Source of the DNA: Escherichia virus TH47
Direction: 5' to 3' (one strand)
Length of the DNA: 64,000 nucleotides
Sequence record: MT446416.1
Shown: positions 3,531-14,445 of the stretch, in pieces
Position numbering within the stretch: position 1 is the first letter of the stretch
How the letters are laid out: each line of letters starts with the position of its first letter
The notes under the pieces: generated by a model
Databases searched by the model: none
Told to the model about the DNA's origin: nothing
What the model saw: only the letters and a program-made list of their open reading frames with translations
Made by a program: the position numbers and the translations under genes

Positions 3531-3886
3531 AAAAAACTCACAGATTTAATATTACTAGTTGTATGTTTAAACACAGTATTATCAAACTTGTAAACAATAG
3601 TATTAAGAGATTTATAAAAATTAACATCAGTTATTACTGCTTTGGAACCATTGATTAAACACGATGATGACGGTAATTTATTTTCTAATATATTCTTTTC
3701 ATCTGAACAAAGTGTTCCAATACAATCATAATATAAAGGTTCACCAACTTTATCAGTACTAAGAAAATCGAAAGCAAGATCATCTATTAGTTTTATGTAT
3801 TTGAATAAATCTTGATAGTACTCATTCATGGTCGATCCTCTTGAATTTAGCATTATTCGAATAAGTATATGAATGTCCAAAATCAT
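3527..3886 (-). CDS. hypothetical protein
   Basis: Minus-strand ORF, 4-nt overlap with neighbour. Confidence 0.5.
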   Translation of the reverse strand: MILDIHILIRIMLNSRGSTMNEYYQDLFKYIKLIDDLAFDFLSTDKVGEPLYYDCIGTLCSDEKNILENKLPSSSCLINGSKAVITDVNFYKSLNTIVYKFDNTVFKHTTSNIKSVSFL

Positions 3887-4082
3887 TTACACCATGCACA
3901 TTCAATACACCGTCGATGAAATAGATTCGGTCGATTGTTAGTTCACGTTTATAATCTGAATTATCATACCAACACAGAACACGAATACCTTTGTACTTTG
4001 TAGTTAGCTCTTTTTCTAAATCAGTAATTAGACTATTGATAAGATTACCTATCTGTGTTATATCTGTGTGAAATTTATCCAT
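3822..4082 (-). CDS. hypothetical protein
   Basis: Minus-strand ORF; start may be internal. Confidence 0.45.
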   Translation of the reverse strand: MDKFHTDITQIGNLINSLITDLEKELTTKYKGIRVLCWYDNSDYKRELTIDRIYFIDGVLNVHGVNDFGHSYTYSNNAKFKRIDHE

Positions 4083-4326
4083 TACAATAATCCTCTCACA
4101 TAAAACATTGATGAAAATAGATAATCATCAGTACTGGAATTTAGTAGTTTATCAAAATTATAATTTTTATGTTTATTTTCATACAAAGACATTCTATAGA
4201 ATCTTTCTATATTTTCTAAGTAGTCTTTTCGCAATAACATCTGTGTTGTTACATTCACTATAATGTACCTTAAAAGAAAAAGGGACCAAATTATGATCCC
4301 TCAAAAATTATAATCCATAAAAATAT

Positions 4327-5067
4327 TCATTCTCTCCACTTTTGACCACGTTGCCAATCTGGATCATTCAAACGTGGGTCATTTTCATTTTGTGTATTAG
4401 TAACTTTACCACTTTTATGAACTAACCAAATTCGTTTTGACGCGACCGAAGAATATTTTTGTTTTTGAACATCAGTTCTCTTTTTACCAGTGTTTGATTT
4501 CTTTATATTGTTGGACCATGATGTTTTTTCTTCATCTGTCATTTTATATGTACAGGGTTTACCATGCATAGGATTTTTATCTCCAGGGAAACAACCTTTC
4601 ATCCTCTGACTCATTTGAATACGTGTTTCTTCTGATACAGATTTACCTTTATTCCAAGCCACAACACCTGAAGAATATCGCTTCTTTTGTGCCGTTGATA
4701 TTTGTTTTTTCCAATTTTCTTTATCAATTACGCCGTAGCCACCTTCTCCACCACGTTTGATGTTATATGTGTCGCTTCTTTGTATAAATTGTTCATTAAC
4801 AATTTCTCTTTCTTTGTTATACATTTCTTCTTTATTATCAAAAATATAAAGTATTTCTTTATTGAATTTTTCAATTCCATATTTCTTAATGGATTTCTTT
4901 ATCAGAACACCTGAACCCATATATTCATCATTTATGTCATCAGTCATATGAGCACCAATATAAATTTTATTATTAATTAAATTGGTTATTTTATATATAA
5001 TATAATAGTGCATATAGAAAGTCCTTTTTGTCATATATGCACTATTTATTTTATCAAAAACGTCCAA
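4327..5067 (-). mobile_element. GIY-YIG homing endonuclease (Seg/I-TevI-like) gene
   Basis: N-terminal GIY-YIG signature YIIYKITNLINNKIYIGAH, basic Lys/Arg-rich C-terminal DNA-binding region; inserted immediately downstream of pseT; true start probably an internal Met. Confidence 0.8.
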
Positions 5068-5986
5068 AATCTACTTGAAATACCTTCAAACCAAGTAGCT
5101 TACGCCACATGAACGTCACGGCTTCGCGGTCATCATATACCTTTTTAACATCGTATTGATTAACCACATTTTTCATGTACAGGTCGAATTTAACAACATC
5201 ATCAGGACGTTTATCATCGATGCCTCGCATAAACAATGCATCGTAAGGAACACCCCAATTCTTAAGCCACTGTTCGGTGTCAGTACGACACCCTTCAGTA
5301 CGCCCACTCATGACGATAATCTTGCGTTTATGAAAAACTGCTTCTGCGATAATAGACAAAATAACTTCTTCGTCTGGTGTATCCTGGAGTACAGTACTTT
5401 CATCGAACGGGTTACGGCCCCATTTATGAGCAAGAGTTCCATCGATATCAACGATGATAGCAGCTTCGCGTGAATTACCATAGTAACCAATGTGTAATGC
5501 CTTACTATAATAGTACGTATCTGCCATTGTGTCAATGATATTATCTTGTACTGAACGCTCACGCTGGAGGTTATATTTCTTACAAAGTTTTACGAACTCT
5601 TTAATCTTAAAGAATTCATGAACATCTGCACCACGGTCTTCATTAGGTACAAAATCATCATAGAAGTTCTTTTCTTTGTAATCATAACCATTATCTTTAG
5701 CCCACATTTTCCATTGATCACGGAAATGTGGTTTAAGGTTCGTATCGGATACGATGATATTCCAACTATTCTCCGCTGCTGAATTTGCTGCACTGAACTG
5801 TAAATTAGTTACGTACTTCTCATTAGCATCATTGAATTTGTAAGCATCATGTGACCCAGCCATAGATTCACGAATATCATCACGGTTGATGTTGATAGTC
5901 TTGGATTTGGCTTTTTTAATCTCTTGCACTGCCCATGTAGTTTTACCACACCCAGGCAATCCAACTGTTAGTGTGATAGTTGGCAT
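5054..5986 (-). CDS. pseT: polynucleotide 5'-kinase/3'-phosphatase
   Basis: N-terminal P-loop GLPGCGKTT, C-terminal DxDGT phosphatase motif IVDIDGTLA, length 310 aa, colinear with remembered T4 Pnk. Confidence 0.9.
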   Translation of the reverse strand: MPTITLTVGLPGCGKTTWAVQEIKKAKSKTININRDDIRESMAGSHDAYKFNDANEKYVTNLQFSAANSAAENSWNIIVSDTNLKPHFRDQWKMWAKDNGYDYKEKNFYDDFVPNEDRGADVHEFFKIKEFVKLCKKYNLQRERSVQDNIIDTMADTYYYSKALHIGYYGNSREAAIIVDIDGTLAHKWGRNPFDESTVLQDTPDEEVILSIIAEAVFHKRKIIVMSGRTEGCRTDTEQWLKNWGVPYDALFMRGIDDKRPDDVVKFDLYMKNVVNQYDVKKVYDDREAVTFMWRKLLGLKVFQVDFGRF

Positions 5987-5989
5987 CCT

Positions 5990-6319
5990 TTAATCCTCTA
6001 AAAATTTAACATGCTCTATATTATGATAGGTGAGCCATTCCTGTGGCGTTCCCTTGCGTATTAAAACACCAACATACGCAATACCATTAATTAGACCATT
6101 ACTATCAGTATTCACATCAACTTTCACAATCTCGGAATCGTACCAGTGTTTGAATGTGTAATCCCAACATCTGACTTTCTTTCCAATAAGATTGCTCTTG
6201 TATTTGTCAATCATTTCATCGACGATAGTTTGTACTGAATTTTTAATTTCAGCTTCTACTGACTTTATATATAGTAAATTACTTTGTGCATTGTTTATCA
6301 TTATATTTTCCAATCCCAA
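5990..6319 (-). CDS. hypothetical protein
   Basis: Minus-strand ORF. Confidence 0.55.
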   Translation of the reverse strand: MGLENIMINNAQSNLLYIKSVEAEIKNSVQTIVDEMIDKYKSNLIGKKVRCWDYTFKHWYDSEIVKVDVNTDSNGLINGIAYVGVLIRKGTPQEWLTYHNIEHVKFLED

Positions 6320-6515
6320 ATCGCTTGGAGATTTTCACAAGTACAGATTCATCACAACGAATACTAGCAGTATCATTGGTTGAACTGTACTTTAATGGGG
6401 TCCACTGTAATTGAGATTCTTCTAGGAACTTGATACATCTGAAATAATCTTTTAAGGAAAGAAATTTAACTACTGACATATCCTGAACAATACTATGCTG
6501 AACTTCAACTTTCAT
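6279..6515 (-). CDS. hypothetical protein
   Basis: Minus-strand ORF; 40-nt overlap suggests internal start. Confidence 0.45.
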   Translation of the reverse strand: MKVEVQHSIVQDMSVVKFLSLKDYFRCIKFLEESQLQWTPLKYSSTNDTASIRCDESVLVKISKRFGIGKYNDKQCTK

Positions 6516-6524
6516 ATGAACTCC

Positions 6525-6782
6525 TTATAGTGGGTCGAATTTATTTTCACGTTTCGATGTATAGCGAGTTACATCATGTATTCTCGGCTTAACATCTTTT
6601 GGTTTCCTTTTCTTCTTGTATTCAGTACTACTACACCCGAAAGTATTCTCGATTCGTTTCTTACTAATCTTCACACCTTTCTTAGAGCGTTTGTGCTGTA
6701 ATTCATCGATTTCTTCTTGTATTTTCCTGAATTCTGTCGGAGAAAGGGAACCGTCATTTTTATACTTAGGTTTAGCCATCAC
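6525..6782 (-). CDS. small basic protein (Lys/Arg-rich)
   Basis: Composition KKGVKISKKR ... KKKRKPKDVKPR. Confidence 0.5.
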   Translation of the reverse strand: MMAKPKYKNDGSLSPTEFRKIQEEIDELQHKRSKKGVKISKKRIENTFGCSSTEYKKKRKPKDVKPRIHDVTRYTSKRENKFDPL

Positions 6783-6808
6783 TTCTCCTTGTGCTAGGCT
6801 AGATAGTA

Positions 6809-7951
6809 CTAAAAATCCTTTAGTACAATTTTCATGTACTTAATAAGAGTCTCTTTGTAATCGACTTTCTTATTGTTGTACATTGCAAAGGCCAAGCCCT
6901 GACGATTCAGTTCATTAGTTAAACACTCCTGAACCTTCTTAGCGAATTCCTTTCGCTCCAAGTGCTTGTGTTCCTTGACGAAGCTTTCAACTTCATCTTG
7001 TAAAGCATTATAGCACGAAAAGACTAGTTGTTCCATTCTTAATATCTTTTGAGTAGCATATTCGTCAGTACTGAACAACTGTTTTAAATCATCACTCGAA
7101 CCATTTAATACAGCTTCATATAAATGGGAATCGAATATAATACTGTCTTTCGTTAAATGCAAAGAACAATACCAGTCGGTTTTGATTTTGCACATTGTAC
7201 CATTATTTAGGATGCACACAAAACCTTCAATGTCAAGCATTTTCTTAACTTCTTCAACACTTTCTTTGAATGTAGTACGAACAGGGAAAGTGTAATGAAT
7301 ATCTTTACCTGTCATATTAGTACTGTACTGTGCAAGGCATGGAAACTTATTACGTAATGCAGAACCACATAATAGTTCACCACTCTTGCGATGGCGAACG
7401 TTTAGTACAAATAATTGTTCAACCTGGTATGGTAATACAATTCGGTACTCTGGACTTGTATACTCCAGATTAACAGTATAGCCCAAACGGTCTGCTTCGT
7501 CAATGTATTGATACAAATTTTGGTTCTCGGTGAGAAGACGAGTGCTGTTAATCGCATGGTCTGAATACAATGCAGTATGTGATTTACAACGAATCTCACC
7601 ATCATTATCACGGTAAGTACTGATCACTGAACCATCCAACTTAGGCATCACTACCGCAATGTCATCGCAGGTGGTATCAGCAGGGAACATTGTAGCAGGA
7701 TTCTCGTAAGCATTGAAGAACTTTTTCATAGTACGAGCAGCACAACGAATCATATTACCTTCTTCATCAATTTCCCACATAGATCCACGGGTTTCTAATG
7801 CATTGGGTTGCATGAAATCAGTATATGATGCTAGACGATAACTGAATACACGATACGTTCCACCAGCAGGACTTTTATGATCCACATAAAAGAAAGCCTC
7901 ACGGGTATTACATAAGTGCATTAAATCTTCATATATTTGTAAAAGGGTCAT
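6809..7951 (-). CDS. rnlA: RNA ligase 1
   Basis: 380 aa; FFYVDHKSPAGGTYRVFSY matches T4 Rnl1 N-terminus, adenylation lysine motif KLDGS (KxDG), KIKTDWY matches T4 KIKSDWY. Confidence 0.9.
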   Translation of the reverse strand: MTLLQIYEDLMHLCNTREAFFYVDHKSPAGGTYRVFSYRLASYTDFMQPNALETRGSMWEIDEEGNMIRCAARTMKKFFNAYENPATMFPADTTCDDIAVVMPKLDGSVISTYRDNDGEIRCKSHTALYSDHAINSTRLLTENQNLYQYIDEADRLGYTVNLEYTSPEYRIVLPYQVEQLFVLNVRHRKSGELLCGSALRNKFPCLAQYSTNMTGKDIHYTFPVRTTFKESVEEVKKMLDIEGFVCILNNGTMCKIKTDWYCSLHLTKDSIIFDSHLYEAVLNGSSDDLKQLFSTDEYATQKILRMEQLVFSCYNALQDEVESFVKEHKHLERKEFAKKVQECLTNELNRQGLAFAMYNNKKVDYKETLIKYMKIVLKDF

Positions 7952-9484: not shown

Positions 9485-9787
9485 TTATCCTCTTAGTTTA
9501 ATAGTACTGGCTGGATAATCTACCATAGTACTATCTGGTAATCCTATACAGTAATAAGGAAAATATCCCATCTTTATATTAATACCAATTAACATTCCAG
9601 TTTTATATGAAGTATTAATTTCATAGTGGTCGTCTATATCAACTGCCAGTCCATATAAGGATATATTACAATCCTTGATGTATCGTTCAAAGATTTTATA
9701 CATTGATGGGTATAAAGTTCCATTGGATTCTTTTACTACATCAGCCAACAACTTTATAGTACTGTTAATTAAATCTATACTGAGCAT
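9485..9787 (-). CDS. hypothetical protein
   Basis: Minus-strand ORF. Confidence 0.5.
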   Translation of the reverse strand: MLSIDLINSTIKLLADVVKESNGTLYPSMYKIFERYIKDCNISLYGLAVDIDDHYEINTSYKTGMLIGINIKMGYFPYYCIGLPDSTMVDYPASTIKLRG

Positions 9788-14179: not shown

Positions 14180-14445
14180 ATATTCACCAAATCAACAGAG
14201 AATAAGTCGTTATCAAATTTATATGAAAGTACTAATCTACCATCAAAACTATCGACACTAAGTATCTTTCGTTTTTTCCCATTAATGAAAATTTCAGTAT
14301 CAATAAAATACTCACGTAATTCTTCTAGGTAATTTGACCATAATTTATGAGTAAACGCATATTTATTAATTGTGTTAGTACTTCTGTGATTATGGTGTAA
14401 TTTAAATAATTCCATATAAGTGAATTGTATATGTTTGTAATTCAT
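14176..14445 (-). CDS. family-B paralog
   Basis: N-terminus MNYKHIQFTYMELF; SD AAGGGGAAA upstream. Confidence 0.6.
   Translation of the reverse strand: MNYKHIQFTYMELFKLHHNHRSTNTINKYAFTHKLWSNYLEELREYFIDTEIFINGKKRKILSVDSFDGRLVLSYKFDNDLFSVDLVNI

What the first reader, a model, noticed from the sequence alone, without database searches (positions are those of the whole stretch)
4327..7951. RNA repair pair (pseT and rnlA) with a GIY-YIG homing endonuclease inserted beside pseT
Polynucleotide kinase/phosphatase and RNA ligase 1 together form the T4 tRNA-repair pathway that counters host anticodon nucleases. Here they lie 0.8 kb apart, with a free-standing GIY-YIG endonuclease gene abutting and overlapping the 3' end of pseT, the typical arrangement for a Seg-like element that homes next to a conserved gene.
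Basis: partly seen in the sequence, partly recalled or inferred. Interest (0 to 1): 0.45.

Follow-up and report, generated by a model that had tools for sequence, protein, structure and literature searches.

The report
Mobile endonuclease gene beside phage pseT
A jumbo E. coli phage carries the usual T4-type RNA-repair genes, and, unlike all 35 sequenced relatives, has a selfish "homing" endonuclease gene just after the kinase gene pseT, from a lineage that sits at this same spot in very different phages; a clean but ordinary example.

Summary
All genes are on the minus strand: rnlA (6809-7951), three small ORFs, pseT (5054-5986), and a GIY-YIG Seg-type gene. One correction: the Seg gene really starts at ATG 5013 (228 aa), 40 nt after the pseT stop, so it does not overlap pseT.

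The window is an Asteriusvirus (121Q/PBECO4-like jumbo coliphage). All 35 relatives in the phage collection lack the endonuclease; in them the pseT stop is followed after 7 nt by a terminator. Here about 750 nt sit between the two.

The last 100 nt of pseT differ at 21-23 positions from relatives that differ from each other at only 0-3 (p about 4e-14).

All 12 homologues that share the C-terminal domain lie directly 3' of a PNKP-phosphatase gene. They come from three T4-like genera and eight metagenomic contigs, several from jumbo phages. Six relatives that share only the catalytic domain do not.

The cassette has a late-promoter-like ATAAATA box and a conserved, covarying hairpin that hides its start codon. 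This is the known T4 way of controlling homing endonucleases.

Verdict: a recently acquired, probably active, pseT-associated Seg element. It is a new member of a known kind and of moderate interest.

The parts
6809..7951 (-). rnlA, T4-type RNA ligase 1 (380 aa)
   Evidence: Pfam RNA_lig_T4_1 plus T4_Rnl1_C. PHROG 562 at 1.4e-108. PDB 2c5u E 6.5e-57, with the KLDGS motif aligned to the T4 KEDGS adenylylation lysine motif.
5990..6782 (-). Three small conserved ORFs of unknown function between rnlA and pseT (6525-6782, 6279-6515, 5990-6319)
   Evidence: No Pfam hits. Each matches a PHROG of unknown function (phrog_15306, 14730, 31355). They are annotated as hypothetical in relatives, where their number varies from 2 to 4.
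5054..5986 (-). pseT, bifunctional polynucleotide 5'-kinase / 3'-phosphatase (310 aa)
   Evidence: Pfam AAA_33 plus HAD_PNKP. PHROG 505 at 1.2e-92. PDB 1ltq E 1.4e-35, with the P-loop, DxDGT and DDR motifs conserved.
5054..5153 (-). Divergent 3' tract of pseT next to the insertion (last 100 nt; substitutions clustered at 5055-5090 and 5114-5125)
   Evidence: There are 23 mismatches to EC.P1 in these 100 nt, against 136 in the other 4763 aligned nt (Fisher p 4e-14). Seg-less relatives differ from each other by only 0-3 nt here.
5114..5134 (-). Candidate Seg recognition/immunity patch: codons D-D-R-E-A-V-T (GAT GAC CGC GAA GCC GTG ACG)
   Evidence: This is an inference. In seg-less Asteriusviruses the 21 nt read GATGACCGC(A/G)ATCAAGTTGTA and are nearly invariant. 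The window changed codons 4-7 and the second seg+ genome (L012) changed codons 2-4, independently, and both keep DDR. The stretch encodes the conserved DDR phosphatase motif and is one of the few pieces of DNA conserved between Asteriusvirus and T4-like pseT.
5043..5050 (-). T4-late-promoter-like box AATAAATA (core ATAAATA 5043-5049), 5' end of the seg cassette
   Evidence: ATAAATA occurs 3 times in 64 kb against 49.8 +/- 6.5 expected, and is the most depleted 7-mer in the window. The box is conserved upstream of the homologues as TATAAATA, CATAAATA or CTAAATA. Promoter activity is not tested.
5004..5046 (-). RNA hairpin: left arm 5034-5046 overlaps the promoter box, right arm 5004-5016 contains start codon ATG 5011-5013; the loop holds the AAGGA Shine-Dalgarno (5022-5026)
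   Evidence: RNAfold gives -14.7 kcal/mol in the window and -12.6 to -18.8 in homologues. RNAalifold on 10 leaders finds 12 conserved pairs, 2 with compensatory changes. The architecture matches that described for I-TevI, segB and mobE (PMC2988022).
4327..5013 (-). Free-standing GIY-YIG (Seg-type) homing endonuclease gene, 228 aa
   Evidence: PHROG 314 at 6.6e-44. The N-terminal domain is 64.5% identical to T6 SegH. The fold matches the I-TevI catalytic domain. Y7, Y18, E68 and N84 are invariant in the family. dN/dS against the 95%-identical copy is 0.084. GC is 30.6%, against 39.2% for pseT.
4302..5053 (-). DNA absent from all 35 relatives (the inserted cassette: promoter box, hairpin, seg ORF and a 26-nt trailer)
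   Evidence: Homology to relatives stops at 4301 and resumes in the pseT tail. In relatives the pseT stop and the terminator stem are separated by only TACAAAA.
4280..4302 (-). Intrinsic terminator that directly follows pseT in relatives and here follows seg
   Evidence: The terminator scan finds 9 pairs followed by TTTCTTTT. It is annotated as a terminator in phage G17.
4082..4258 (-). Conserved 58-aa ORF downstream: the left flank of the insertion site
   Evidence: phrog_38284 at 3.1e-40. It is 96-97% identical to relatives.

Best explanation
The locus is the T4-type RNA-repair pair, rnlA and pseT, of an Asteriusvirus jumbo coliphage. Both genes are conserved and syntenic with T4.

A cassette of about 750 nt has been added between the pseT stop codon and the pseT terminator. 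It encodes a free-standing GIY-YIG (Seg-type) homing endonuclease.

The endonuclease belongs to a lineage defined by a shared C-terminal, presumably DNA-binding, domain. That lineage is found only directly 3' of genes encoding the PNKP HAD-phosphatase domain, in unrelated phage groups.

Inferred mechanism:
1. During mixed infection the enzyme cuts seg-less pseT alleles in or near the conserved 3' end.
2. Recombinational repair from the seg+ genome copies in the cassette together with the adjacent pseT tail.
3. The carrier genome is protected by substitutions in the pseT tail, most likely the 21-nt DDR-xQVV patch at 5114-5134.
4. Expression follows the T4 scheme. Read-through transcripts from pseT fold a hairpin that buries the start codon. 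Transcripts starting at the embedded late-type promoter lack the left arm and can be translated late.

Shown here: gene identities, absence from relatives, the divergence tract, the link between locus and C-terminal domain, the conserved hairpin, and purifying selection on the ORF.

Inferred: nuclease activity, the cut site, immunity, promoter use, and the role of rnlA/pseT against anticodon nucleases.
For: 1. Identity of the three genes.

2. Absence from relatives. 35 of 35 related genomes lack the cassette and have pseT stop, 7 nt, then the terminator. The best full-length protein match in 50,697 phage records is 46.5%.

3. Divergence tract. The last 100 nt of pseT show 21-23 differences to seg-less genomes that differ by 0-3 among themselves (Fisher p 4e-14).

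4. A second seg+ Asteriusvirus contig (L012, seg 95% identical) has a different set of substitutions in the same 21-nt patch and shares the novel extreme tail VDFGxF*.

5. Locus specificity. All 12 members carrying the C-terminal signature lie immediately 3' of a HAD_PNKP gene on the same strand. These are the window, L012, L013, L016, L021, L022, L023, L024, L031 and three T4-like phages. In one of them (L023) the phosphatase domain stands alone. Six relatives that share only the catalytic domain (T6 SegH and five IMG/VR loci) are not next to pseT.

6. Footprints of transfer. A non-coding remnant of another pseT tail (..GGTAATTTCTAA, i.e. GNF-stop) lies between the resident pseT stop and the seg promoter in L013, L021 and L031.

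7. Seg is more conserved than pseT between lineages: 64 vs 53%, 57 vs 55%, and 45-48 vs 32-35%.

8. The ORF is maintained by selection: dN/dS is 0.084 and the catalytic Tyr, Tyr, Glu and Asn are invariant.

9. Regulation: set against the published T4 scheme (PMC2988022).
Against: - No cleavage assay exists, so activity and target are inferred.
- In the Mosigvirus pair PNJ-9 (seg+) and tp6 (seg-) the divergence tract lies 82-260 nt upstream of the pseT stop, and the DDR-QVV patch is identical in both. The T4-like relatives may therefore cut elsewhere, which leaves the 5114-5134 assignment weak.
- The window and L012 share 95%-identical seg genes but differ at 21 of the last 100 nt of pseT. Simple co-conversion from one donor does not explain the whole tract.
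- The promoter box here is AATAAATA, not the canonical TATAAATA.
- The Pfam GIY-YIG models score below their gathering thresholds.
- The counterpart of I-TevI Arg27 cannot be placed in the alignment.
Confidence: 0.85

Rival explanations
1. The endonuclease gene is an old, vertically inherited resident of the pseT locus in this phage clade. It has been lost from the cultured E. coli/Salmonella Asteriusviruses rather than gained here.
For: Homologues occupy the same position in more distant jumbo-phage contigs (L013, L016, L021, L022, L031), and Seg divergence roughly tracks pseT divergence.
Against: The window is about 97% identical to seg-less EC.P1, Turkey3 and vB_Ec-M-J, and is nested among 35 seg-less genomes that span 85-97% identity. 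All of them have an identical scar-free junction of stop, 7 nt, then terminator. Vertical inheritance would need many independent precise deletions. The local divergence tract, the pseT-tail remnants in three contigs and Seg being more conserved than pseT all point to lateral movement.
Confidence: 0.07
2. The gene is a domesticated or functionally coupled partner of PNKP, for example a nuclease acting in RNA repair or in excluding competitors, kept for the phage's benefit rather than as a selfish mobile element.
For: The adjacency to HAD_PNKP genes is strict across very different phages, including a stand-alone phosphatase (12 of 12). Purifying selection is strong (dN/dS 0.084).
Against: The gene is sporadically present among near-identical genomes in both Asteriusvirus and Mosigvirus. 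Phages without it keep pseT and rnlA intact. The architecture is the standard GIY-YIG plus NUMOD3 plus DNA-binding-tail layout of DNA homing enzymes. Target-specific homing explains the adjacency equally well. Marker exclusion, a known by-product of homing (PMC2988022), would already give a benefit.
Confidence: 0.06
3. The ORF is an inactive relic of a past invasion, with no present nuclease activity.
For: Many phage homing endonuclease genes decay after fixation. The promoter box deviates from TATAAATA at its first base. Pfam scores are sub-threshold.
Against: The ORF is full length, with all family-invariant residues including the GIY-YIG tyrosines, E68 and N84. There are 24 synonymous against 10 non-synonymous differences to the L012 copy. 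The regulatory hairpin is intact.
Confidence: 0.05

Closest known systems
T6 SegH (free-standing GIY-YIG homing endonuclease between nrdD and nrdG; Sandegren, Nord and Sjoberg 2005, cited in PMC2988022)
   Same: The N-terminal catalytic domain is 64.5% identical over 92 aa, and about 73% identical at DNA level. Both are free-standing, in the same orientation as their flanking genes, with NUMOD3-type linker motifs.
   Different: The C-terminal domain is unrelated (8 of 40 aligned residues). The genomic site differs (nrdD/nrdG, not pseT). SegH lacks the promoter-hairpin leader seen here (-0.5 kcal/mol).
Uncharacterised 'Seg-like / SegD' endonucleases annotated downstream of pseT in T4-like phages (Karamvirus vB_Ent31, Gualtarvirus PSTRCR_127, Mosigvirus PNJ-9)
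   Same: They hold the same position and orientation directly after pseT. They are 45-48% identical over the full length, including 54% in the C-terminal 63 aa with the signature NTGK.RT..K..YS..A..R.WL...G....T.D.ND.RL.HPDWQ.G.KW. Each has a TATAAATA-like box and a hairpin upstream. They are sporadic within their genus.
   Different: The host family differs (Straboviridae, pseT only 32-35% identical). Their hairpin hides the Shine-Dalgarno rather than the AUG. Their divergence tract lies further upstream in pseT. The 'SegD' label is an annotation only; T4 segD sits between genes 23 and 24 (PMC2988022) and I did not compare it directly.
Late-promoter plus RBS-sequestering-hairpin control of I-TevI, I-TevII, I-TevIII, T4 segB and Aeh1 mobE (PMC2988022)
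   Same: The promoter box is embedded in the 5' arm of a hairpin that blocks translation initiation on read-through early or middle transcripts. The gene lies inside an upstream early transcription unit, ahead of that unit's terminator.
   Different: Here the start codon and first codons form the 3' arm, with the Shine-Dalgarno in the loop. The host is an Asteriusvirus, whose late promoters have not been mapped as far as I know. No transcript mapping is available.
T4 Pnk/Rnl1 tRNA repair pathway against the PrrC anticodon nuclease
   Same: Both enzymes are present with conserved catalytic motifs and the same gene order and strand as in T4: rnlA, small ORFs, then pseT.
   Different: The proteins are only about 32% (Pnk) identical to T4. 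The intervening genes are unrelated: there is no alc and no spanins. There are no tRNA genes in the window. Neither a host nuclease nor a repair function has been shown for this phage.

Membership tests
GIY-YIG nuclease superfamily | GIY and YIG motifs 10-11 residues apart near the N-terminus | tested here: met
   IIY (residues 5-7) and YIG (18-20). Y7, Y18 and G20 are invariant in 36 family members.
GIY-YIG nuclease superfamily | Catalytic Glu (I-TevI E75) and Asn (N90) equivalents | tested here: met
   E68 (KEREIV) and N84 (TYNI) align with I-TevI ERENF and GYNI, and are invariant in the family.
GIY-YIG nuclease superfamily | Conserved Arg (I-TevI R27) equivalent | tested here: inconclusive
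   The region aligns to a gap. The family instead has an invariant H22 and Y31-x-GSG.
GIY-YIG nuclease superfamily | Alpha/beta GIY-YIG fold | tested here: met
   The AF2 model has pLDDT 90-96 over residues 1-80. The Foldseek top hits are 1mk0 and 1ln0 (I-TevI catalytic domain), probability 1.00, TM 0.67.
GIY-YIG nuclease superfamily | Pfam model score above the gathering threshold | tested here: not met
   PF01541 scores 16.7 bits (cut-off 22.6), PF19835 19.1 (25) and NUMOD3 16.8 (20.4). PHROG 314 at 6.6e-44 and SegH at 1.6e-39 make up for this.
Free-standing (Seg-type) homing endonuclease gene | Not inside an intron or intein; lies between conserved genes | tested here: met
   It lies between the pseT stop codon and the pseT terminator. 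pseT is intact at 310 aa.
Free-standing (Seg-type) homing endonuclease gene | Sporadic presence/absence among close relatives at a fixed site | tested here: met
   It is absent in 35 of 35 Asteriusviruses and present in the window and L012. Of the PNJ-9 pseT-seg matches, only 3 records cover at least 80% of the query, against more than 100 at 90-95% identity.
Free-standing (Seg-type) homing endonuclease gene | Flanking-sequence signature of gene conversion or target polymorphism | tested here: met
   Substitution density is about 8-fold higher in the adjacent 100 nt (23% against 2.9%; p 4e-14). There are donor-tail remnants in L013, L021 and L031.
Free-standing (Seg-type) homing endonuclease gene | Site-specific double-strand cleavage of the seg-less allele, and preferential inheritance in crosses | not testable with these tools
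   This needs protein expression, cleavage mapping and phage crosses.
T4 polynucleotide kinase/phosphatase (PseT) | N-terminal P-loop kinase and C-terminal HAD phosphatase with DxDxT and DD motifs | tested here: met
   GLPGCGKT, NINRDD, DIDGT and DDR align with T4 Pnk 1ltq. Pfam AAA_33 plus HAD_PNKP.
T4 RNA ligase 1 (RnlA/gp63) | Nucleotidyltransferase domain with the KxDG lysine, plus the Rnl1-specific C-terminal domain | tested here: met
   KLDGS aligns with T4 K99 (KEDGS). Pfam RNA_lig_T4_1 plus T4_Rnl1_C.
Late-promoter/hairpin translational control of T-even homing endonuclease genes | A hairpin occluding the RBS or AUG, with the late promoter in its 5' arm, conserved with compensatory changes | tested here: met
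   12 pairs across 10 leaders, 2 with double changes (for example GTGCAT/ATGCAC to GTACAT/ATGTAC). MFE is -12.6 to -18.8 kcal/mol. Most pairs never vary, so they are uninformative.
Late-promoter/hairpin translational control of T-even homing endonuclease genes | A transcript 5' end inside the hairpin at late times | not testable with these tools
   The only support is indirect: extreme genome-wide depletion of ATAAATA.

The most novel reading that the evidence does not exclude
This Seg lineage recognises the DNA that encodes the catalytically essential, nearly universal DDR-xQVV-xMWR motif at the 3' end of PNKP phosphatase genes. That would let it jump between phage families that share almost no other DNA: T4-like Straboviridae, Asteriusvirus-type jumbo phages, and phages with a stand-alone phosphatase. 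Each jump drags pieces of the donor's pseT tail with it. The two independent substitution sets in the window and in L012 would then mark the cleavage/immunity site. On this reading the element drives lateral exchange and local hypervariation of an anti-defence RNA-repair gene.
Probability: 0.4. Interest if true: 0.55.

Novelty: new member of a known kind. Interest (0 to 1): 0.4.

Why it matters
The RNA-repair genes are ordinary and already annotated in relatives.

The endonuclease is a tidy natural experiment. The seg+ and seg- alleles are 97% identical elsewhere, so the insertion boundaries, a candidate target/immunity patch and the regulatory leader can all be read directly from sequence.

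The strict link between one C-terminal domain and the 3' end of PNKP genes across unrelated phage groups shows how a homing endonuclease can persist. It targets DNA that encodes an indispensable catalytic motif.

The lineage also offers an uncharacterised GIY-YIG enzyme with a predictable target for cleavage studies. If confirmed, it would show that homing elements shuttle sequence between T4-like and jumbo phages at an anti-defence locus.

Tried and rejected
1. IMG/VR scan with peptide patterns from Seg found only two weak, unrelated hits. The large protein search was needed to find the relatives.

2. IMG/VR scan for the 14-mer ATAAATAGTGCATA gave mostly chance matches. After a tblastn filter only L031 was a true pseT-linked member. 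Five others shared only the catalytic domain.

3. I tested whether the window's divergent pseT tail was copied from a T4-like donor. It was not: 25-30 of 75 nt are identical, which is background. It is not clearly from A4- or Turkey5-like Asteriusviruses either (53-57 of 75).

4. I looked for an I-TevI-style operator, meaning similarity between the seg leader and the pseT 3' end. The score was no better than for shuffled sequence.

5. The '2'-O-methyltransferase' label in some relatives suggested a Hen1-like repair partner. It traces to a 100-aa ORF (9485-9787) with only a Pfam hit at E 0.11. Rejected.

6. No second copy or other homologue of the endonuclease exists in the 64-kb window. The window has no tRNA genes.

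7. Literature searches found no paper describing a pseT-associated Seg or homing endonucleases in Asteriusvirus.

8. The whole-chain Foldseek search gave no confident solved-structure match for the C-terminal domain.

9. The first MAFFT alignment of the junction misplaced the gap. I set the boundaries by in-frame comparison and BLAST instead.

Full report
**What is there.** All genes in 1-10 kb of the window run on the minus strand.

- rnlA, 6809-7951, 380 aa. It carries Pfam RNA_lig_T4_1 and T4_Rnl1_C. It aligns with T4 Rnl1 (2c5u, E 6.5e-57), including the KxDG lysine motif, KLDGS here.
- Three small ORFs of unknown function follow (6525-6782, 6279-6515, 5990-6319). They are conserved in relatives.
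- pseT, 5054-5986, 310 aa. It has AAA_33 plus HAD_PNKP. It aligns with T4 Pnk (1ltq, E 1.4e-35), with the P-loop, NINRDD, DIDGT and DDR motifs conserved.
- T4 has the same order and strand, rnlA ... pseT. So do the T4-like phages inspected.

**The endonuclease gene.** The ORF listed as 4327-5067 is a GIY-YIG protein.

- PHROG 314 'homing endonuclease' scores 6.6e-44.
- The N-terminal 92 aa are 64.5% identical to T6 SegH.
- The AlphaFold model has mean pLDDT 85. Its best solved-structure match is the I-TevI catalytic domain, probability 1.0.
- Y7, Y18, E68 and N84 are invariant in 36 family members.
- The Pfam GIY-YIG, SegE and NUMOD3 hits are all below their gathering scores.
- The TTG start at 5067, which creates the overlap with pseT, is an artefact of taking the longest ORF. 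All homologues begin MHY or MYY, and AAGGA lies 8 nt before ATG 5013. The gene is therefore 4327-5013 and starts 40 nt after the pseT stop.

**Where the window comes from, and the presence/absence test.**

- The region is 96-97% identical to Escherichia phages EC.P1, Turkey3 and vB_Ec-M-J. It is 85-93% identical to 121Q, PBECO4, G17, A4 and others, all genus Asteriusvirus with genomes of 320-386 kb.
- None of the 35 matching records contains the endonuclease segment.
- The best full-length protein match in the whole phage collection is 46.5%.
- In the relatives the pseT stop codon is followed by TACAAAA and then an intrinsic terminator hairpin.
- In the window, 4302-5053 is inserted between them, and the same terminator (4280-4302) now follows seg.
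- There is no second copy in the window.

**Signature in the flank.**

- Against EC.P1, 23 of the 100 nt of pseT nearest the insert differ. Elsewhere 136 of 4763 differ (Fisher p 4e-14).
- Four seg-less genomes that are only 91-97% identical overall differ from each other by 0-3 nt in these 100 nt.
- The changes fall into two clusters. The first covers the last 12 codons, where the tail VAEGNF* becomes VDFGRF*. The second is 5114-5125, directly after the catalytic DDR codons, where NQVV becomes EAVT.
- A 3.3-kb metagenomic contig (L012) carries a 95%-identical seg at the same site. It shares the VDFGxF* tail.
- L012 has a different, non-overlapping set of changes at the DDR patch: GAC CGC AAT becomes GAT AGA TCA.
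- So two seg+ alleles have been altered independently within 21 nt that are otherwise invariant. This makes the patch the best candidate for the recognition or immunity site. It is an inference, not a result.
- The analogous Mosigvirus pair has its divergence tract further upstream, 82-260 nt before the stop, and the DDR patch there is unchanged.

**The lineage and its locus.** A search of 5.8 billion proteins found relatives at 95, 64, 62, 58, 57 ...% identity.

- Every member examined whose C-terminal domain matches lies immediately 3' of a HAD_PNKP gene, on the same strand. That is 12 of 12.
- These are the window, L012, L013 (324-kb contig), L016, L021, L022, L023, L024 and L031, plus the T4-like phages vB_Ent31 (Karamvirus), PSTRCR_127 (Gualtarvirus) and PNJ-9 (Mosigvirus).
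- In L023 the upstream gene is a stand-alone 150-aa phosphatase. L024 is a 183-kb phage contig with rnlA, pseT, seg and rnl2.
- The C-terminal 63 aa are 54% identical between the window and the T4-like members. They are unrelated to SegH, which sits between nrdD and nrdG.
- Five IMG/VR relatives share only the catalytic domain. None has a pseT homologue in the fetched locus. One of these lies near a contig end, so that case is weaker.
- The element is sporadic in Mosigvirus too. Only 3 records cover at least 80% of the PNJ-9 pseT-seg query, against more than 100 at 90-95% identity. The listed ones cover 67% and lack the seg segment.

**Signs of lateral movement.**

- Seg is more conserved than pseT between the same genome pairs: 64 vs 53%, 57 vs 55%, and 45-48 vs 32-35%.
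- In L013, L021 and L031 a non-coding remnant of a different pseT tail lies between the resident pseT stop and the seg promoter. The remnant reads ...GGTAATTTCTAA, i.e. G-N-F-stop. In L016 and L022 that same sequence is the true end of pseT.
- Seg GC content is 30.6%, against 39.2% for pseT.
- dN/dS between the window and L012 copies is 0.084, from 24 synonymous and 10 non-synonymous differences. The protein is therefore under selection.

**Regulation.**

- Directly after the pseT stop lies AATAAATA (5043-5050).
- It is followed by a hairpin at 5004-5046. The left arm overlaps the box. The right arm is TATATGCACTATT and contains the start codon. The Shine-Dalgarno sits in the loop. The predicted energy is -14.7 kcal/mol.
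- Ten leaders give a 12-pair consensus, with compensatory changes at two pairs. Most pairs never vary, so they say nothing either way.
- ATAAATA is the most depleted 7-mer in the window: 3 observed against about 41-50 expected. TATAAATA occurs 0 times against 14 expected. This argues that it is a functional signal that is purged elsewhere.
- This is the arrangement published for I-TevI, I-TevII, I-TevIII, segB and mobE. Read-through early transcripts are translationally silent, and late transcripts that start inside the hairpin are translated (PMC2988022).
- Promoter use in an Asteriusvirus is inferred, not shown.

**Comparison and verdict.**

- The element works like a T-even Seg gene. It passes the sequence-level membership tests for a free-standing GIY-YIG homing endonuclease. 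Cleavage and homing could not be tested.
- I found no paper describing a pseT-associated Seg or homing endonucleases in Asteriusvirus. Homologues next to pseT are already annotated as 'Seg-like' in GenBank records of T4-like phages.
- It is therefore a new member of a known kind.
- The most interesting residue is the hypothesis that the lineage targets DNA encoding the DDR-QVV-MWR phosphatase motif, and so crosses phage families.

Noticed in passing
whole window; copies at 5043-5049, 14360-14366, 40407-40413 (all minus strand): ATAAATA is the most under-represented heptamer in the 64-kb window: 3 copies against about 41-50 expected. TATAAATA occurs 0 times against 14 expected. The next most depleted 7-mers all contain TAAATA. 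This suggests that a T4-type late-promoter core is purged from this early-gene region of an Asteriusvirus.
   Followed up: partly
window 3822-4082 (crossover about 4008-4019): This 86-aa ORF is a fusion of two tandem paralogous genes that are separate in all close relatives (EC.P1 L001 1822-2073 and 2073-2333). About 240 nt are missing. The only other seg+ Asteriusvirus contig (L012) has the same fusion, so it may have travelled with the seg conversion tract or may mark shared ancestry.
   Followed up: partly
L013 about 4950-4975; L021 about 2455-2470; L031 upstream of 5840: Short non-coding remnants of a foreign pseT 3' end (GG[T/A]AA[T/C]TTCTAA, i.e. G-N-F-stop) lie between the resident pseT stop codon and the seg promoter box. 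They look like footprints of transfer between different pseT lineages.
   Followed up: partly
L007 about 2973-2984, L008 about 2933-2944, L009 about 2963-2974, and also L023 and L024: In T4-like seg+ loci the pseT stop codon is followed immediately by the conserved TTAGAAAT(C/T)NCC. This is the reverse complement of a GDF/GNF-stop pseT tail and forms an imperfect palindrome around the stop codon. Its function is unknown.
   Followed up: no
window 9485-9787: Some relatives annotate a 'SAM-dependent 2'-O-MTase domain' protein in this neighbourhood. The only trace here is a 100-aa ORF with a Pfam CoV_Methyltr_2 hit at E 0.11, so the label looks unsupported.
   Followed up: yes
window 5990-6782 and the equivalent regions of L001-L006: The number of small ORFs between rnlA and pseT varies among Asteriusviruses: 3 in the window, EC.P1 and ELP-22; 4 in G17, A4 and Turkey5; 2 in Salmonella phage SD-2_S15. 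This is a second indel-prone spot within the RNA-repair locus.
   Followed up: no
L024 (JGI 3300047444, 183-kb contig) and L023: L024 clusters rnlA, pseT, seg and an Rnl2-type ligase within 5 kb. L023 has the Seg gene downstream of a stand-alone 150-aa PNKP phosphatase domain with no kinase domain.
   Followed up: no
window 4303-4328 and 5054-5062: The 26-nt trailer after the seg stop ends in AATTTTTGA. This echoes the CGTTTTTGA at the end of pseT, a 7-nt direct repeat (TTTTTGA) flanking the cassette. It could be chance or a relic of the joining event.
   Followed up: no
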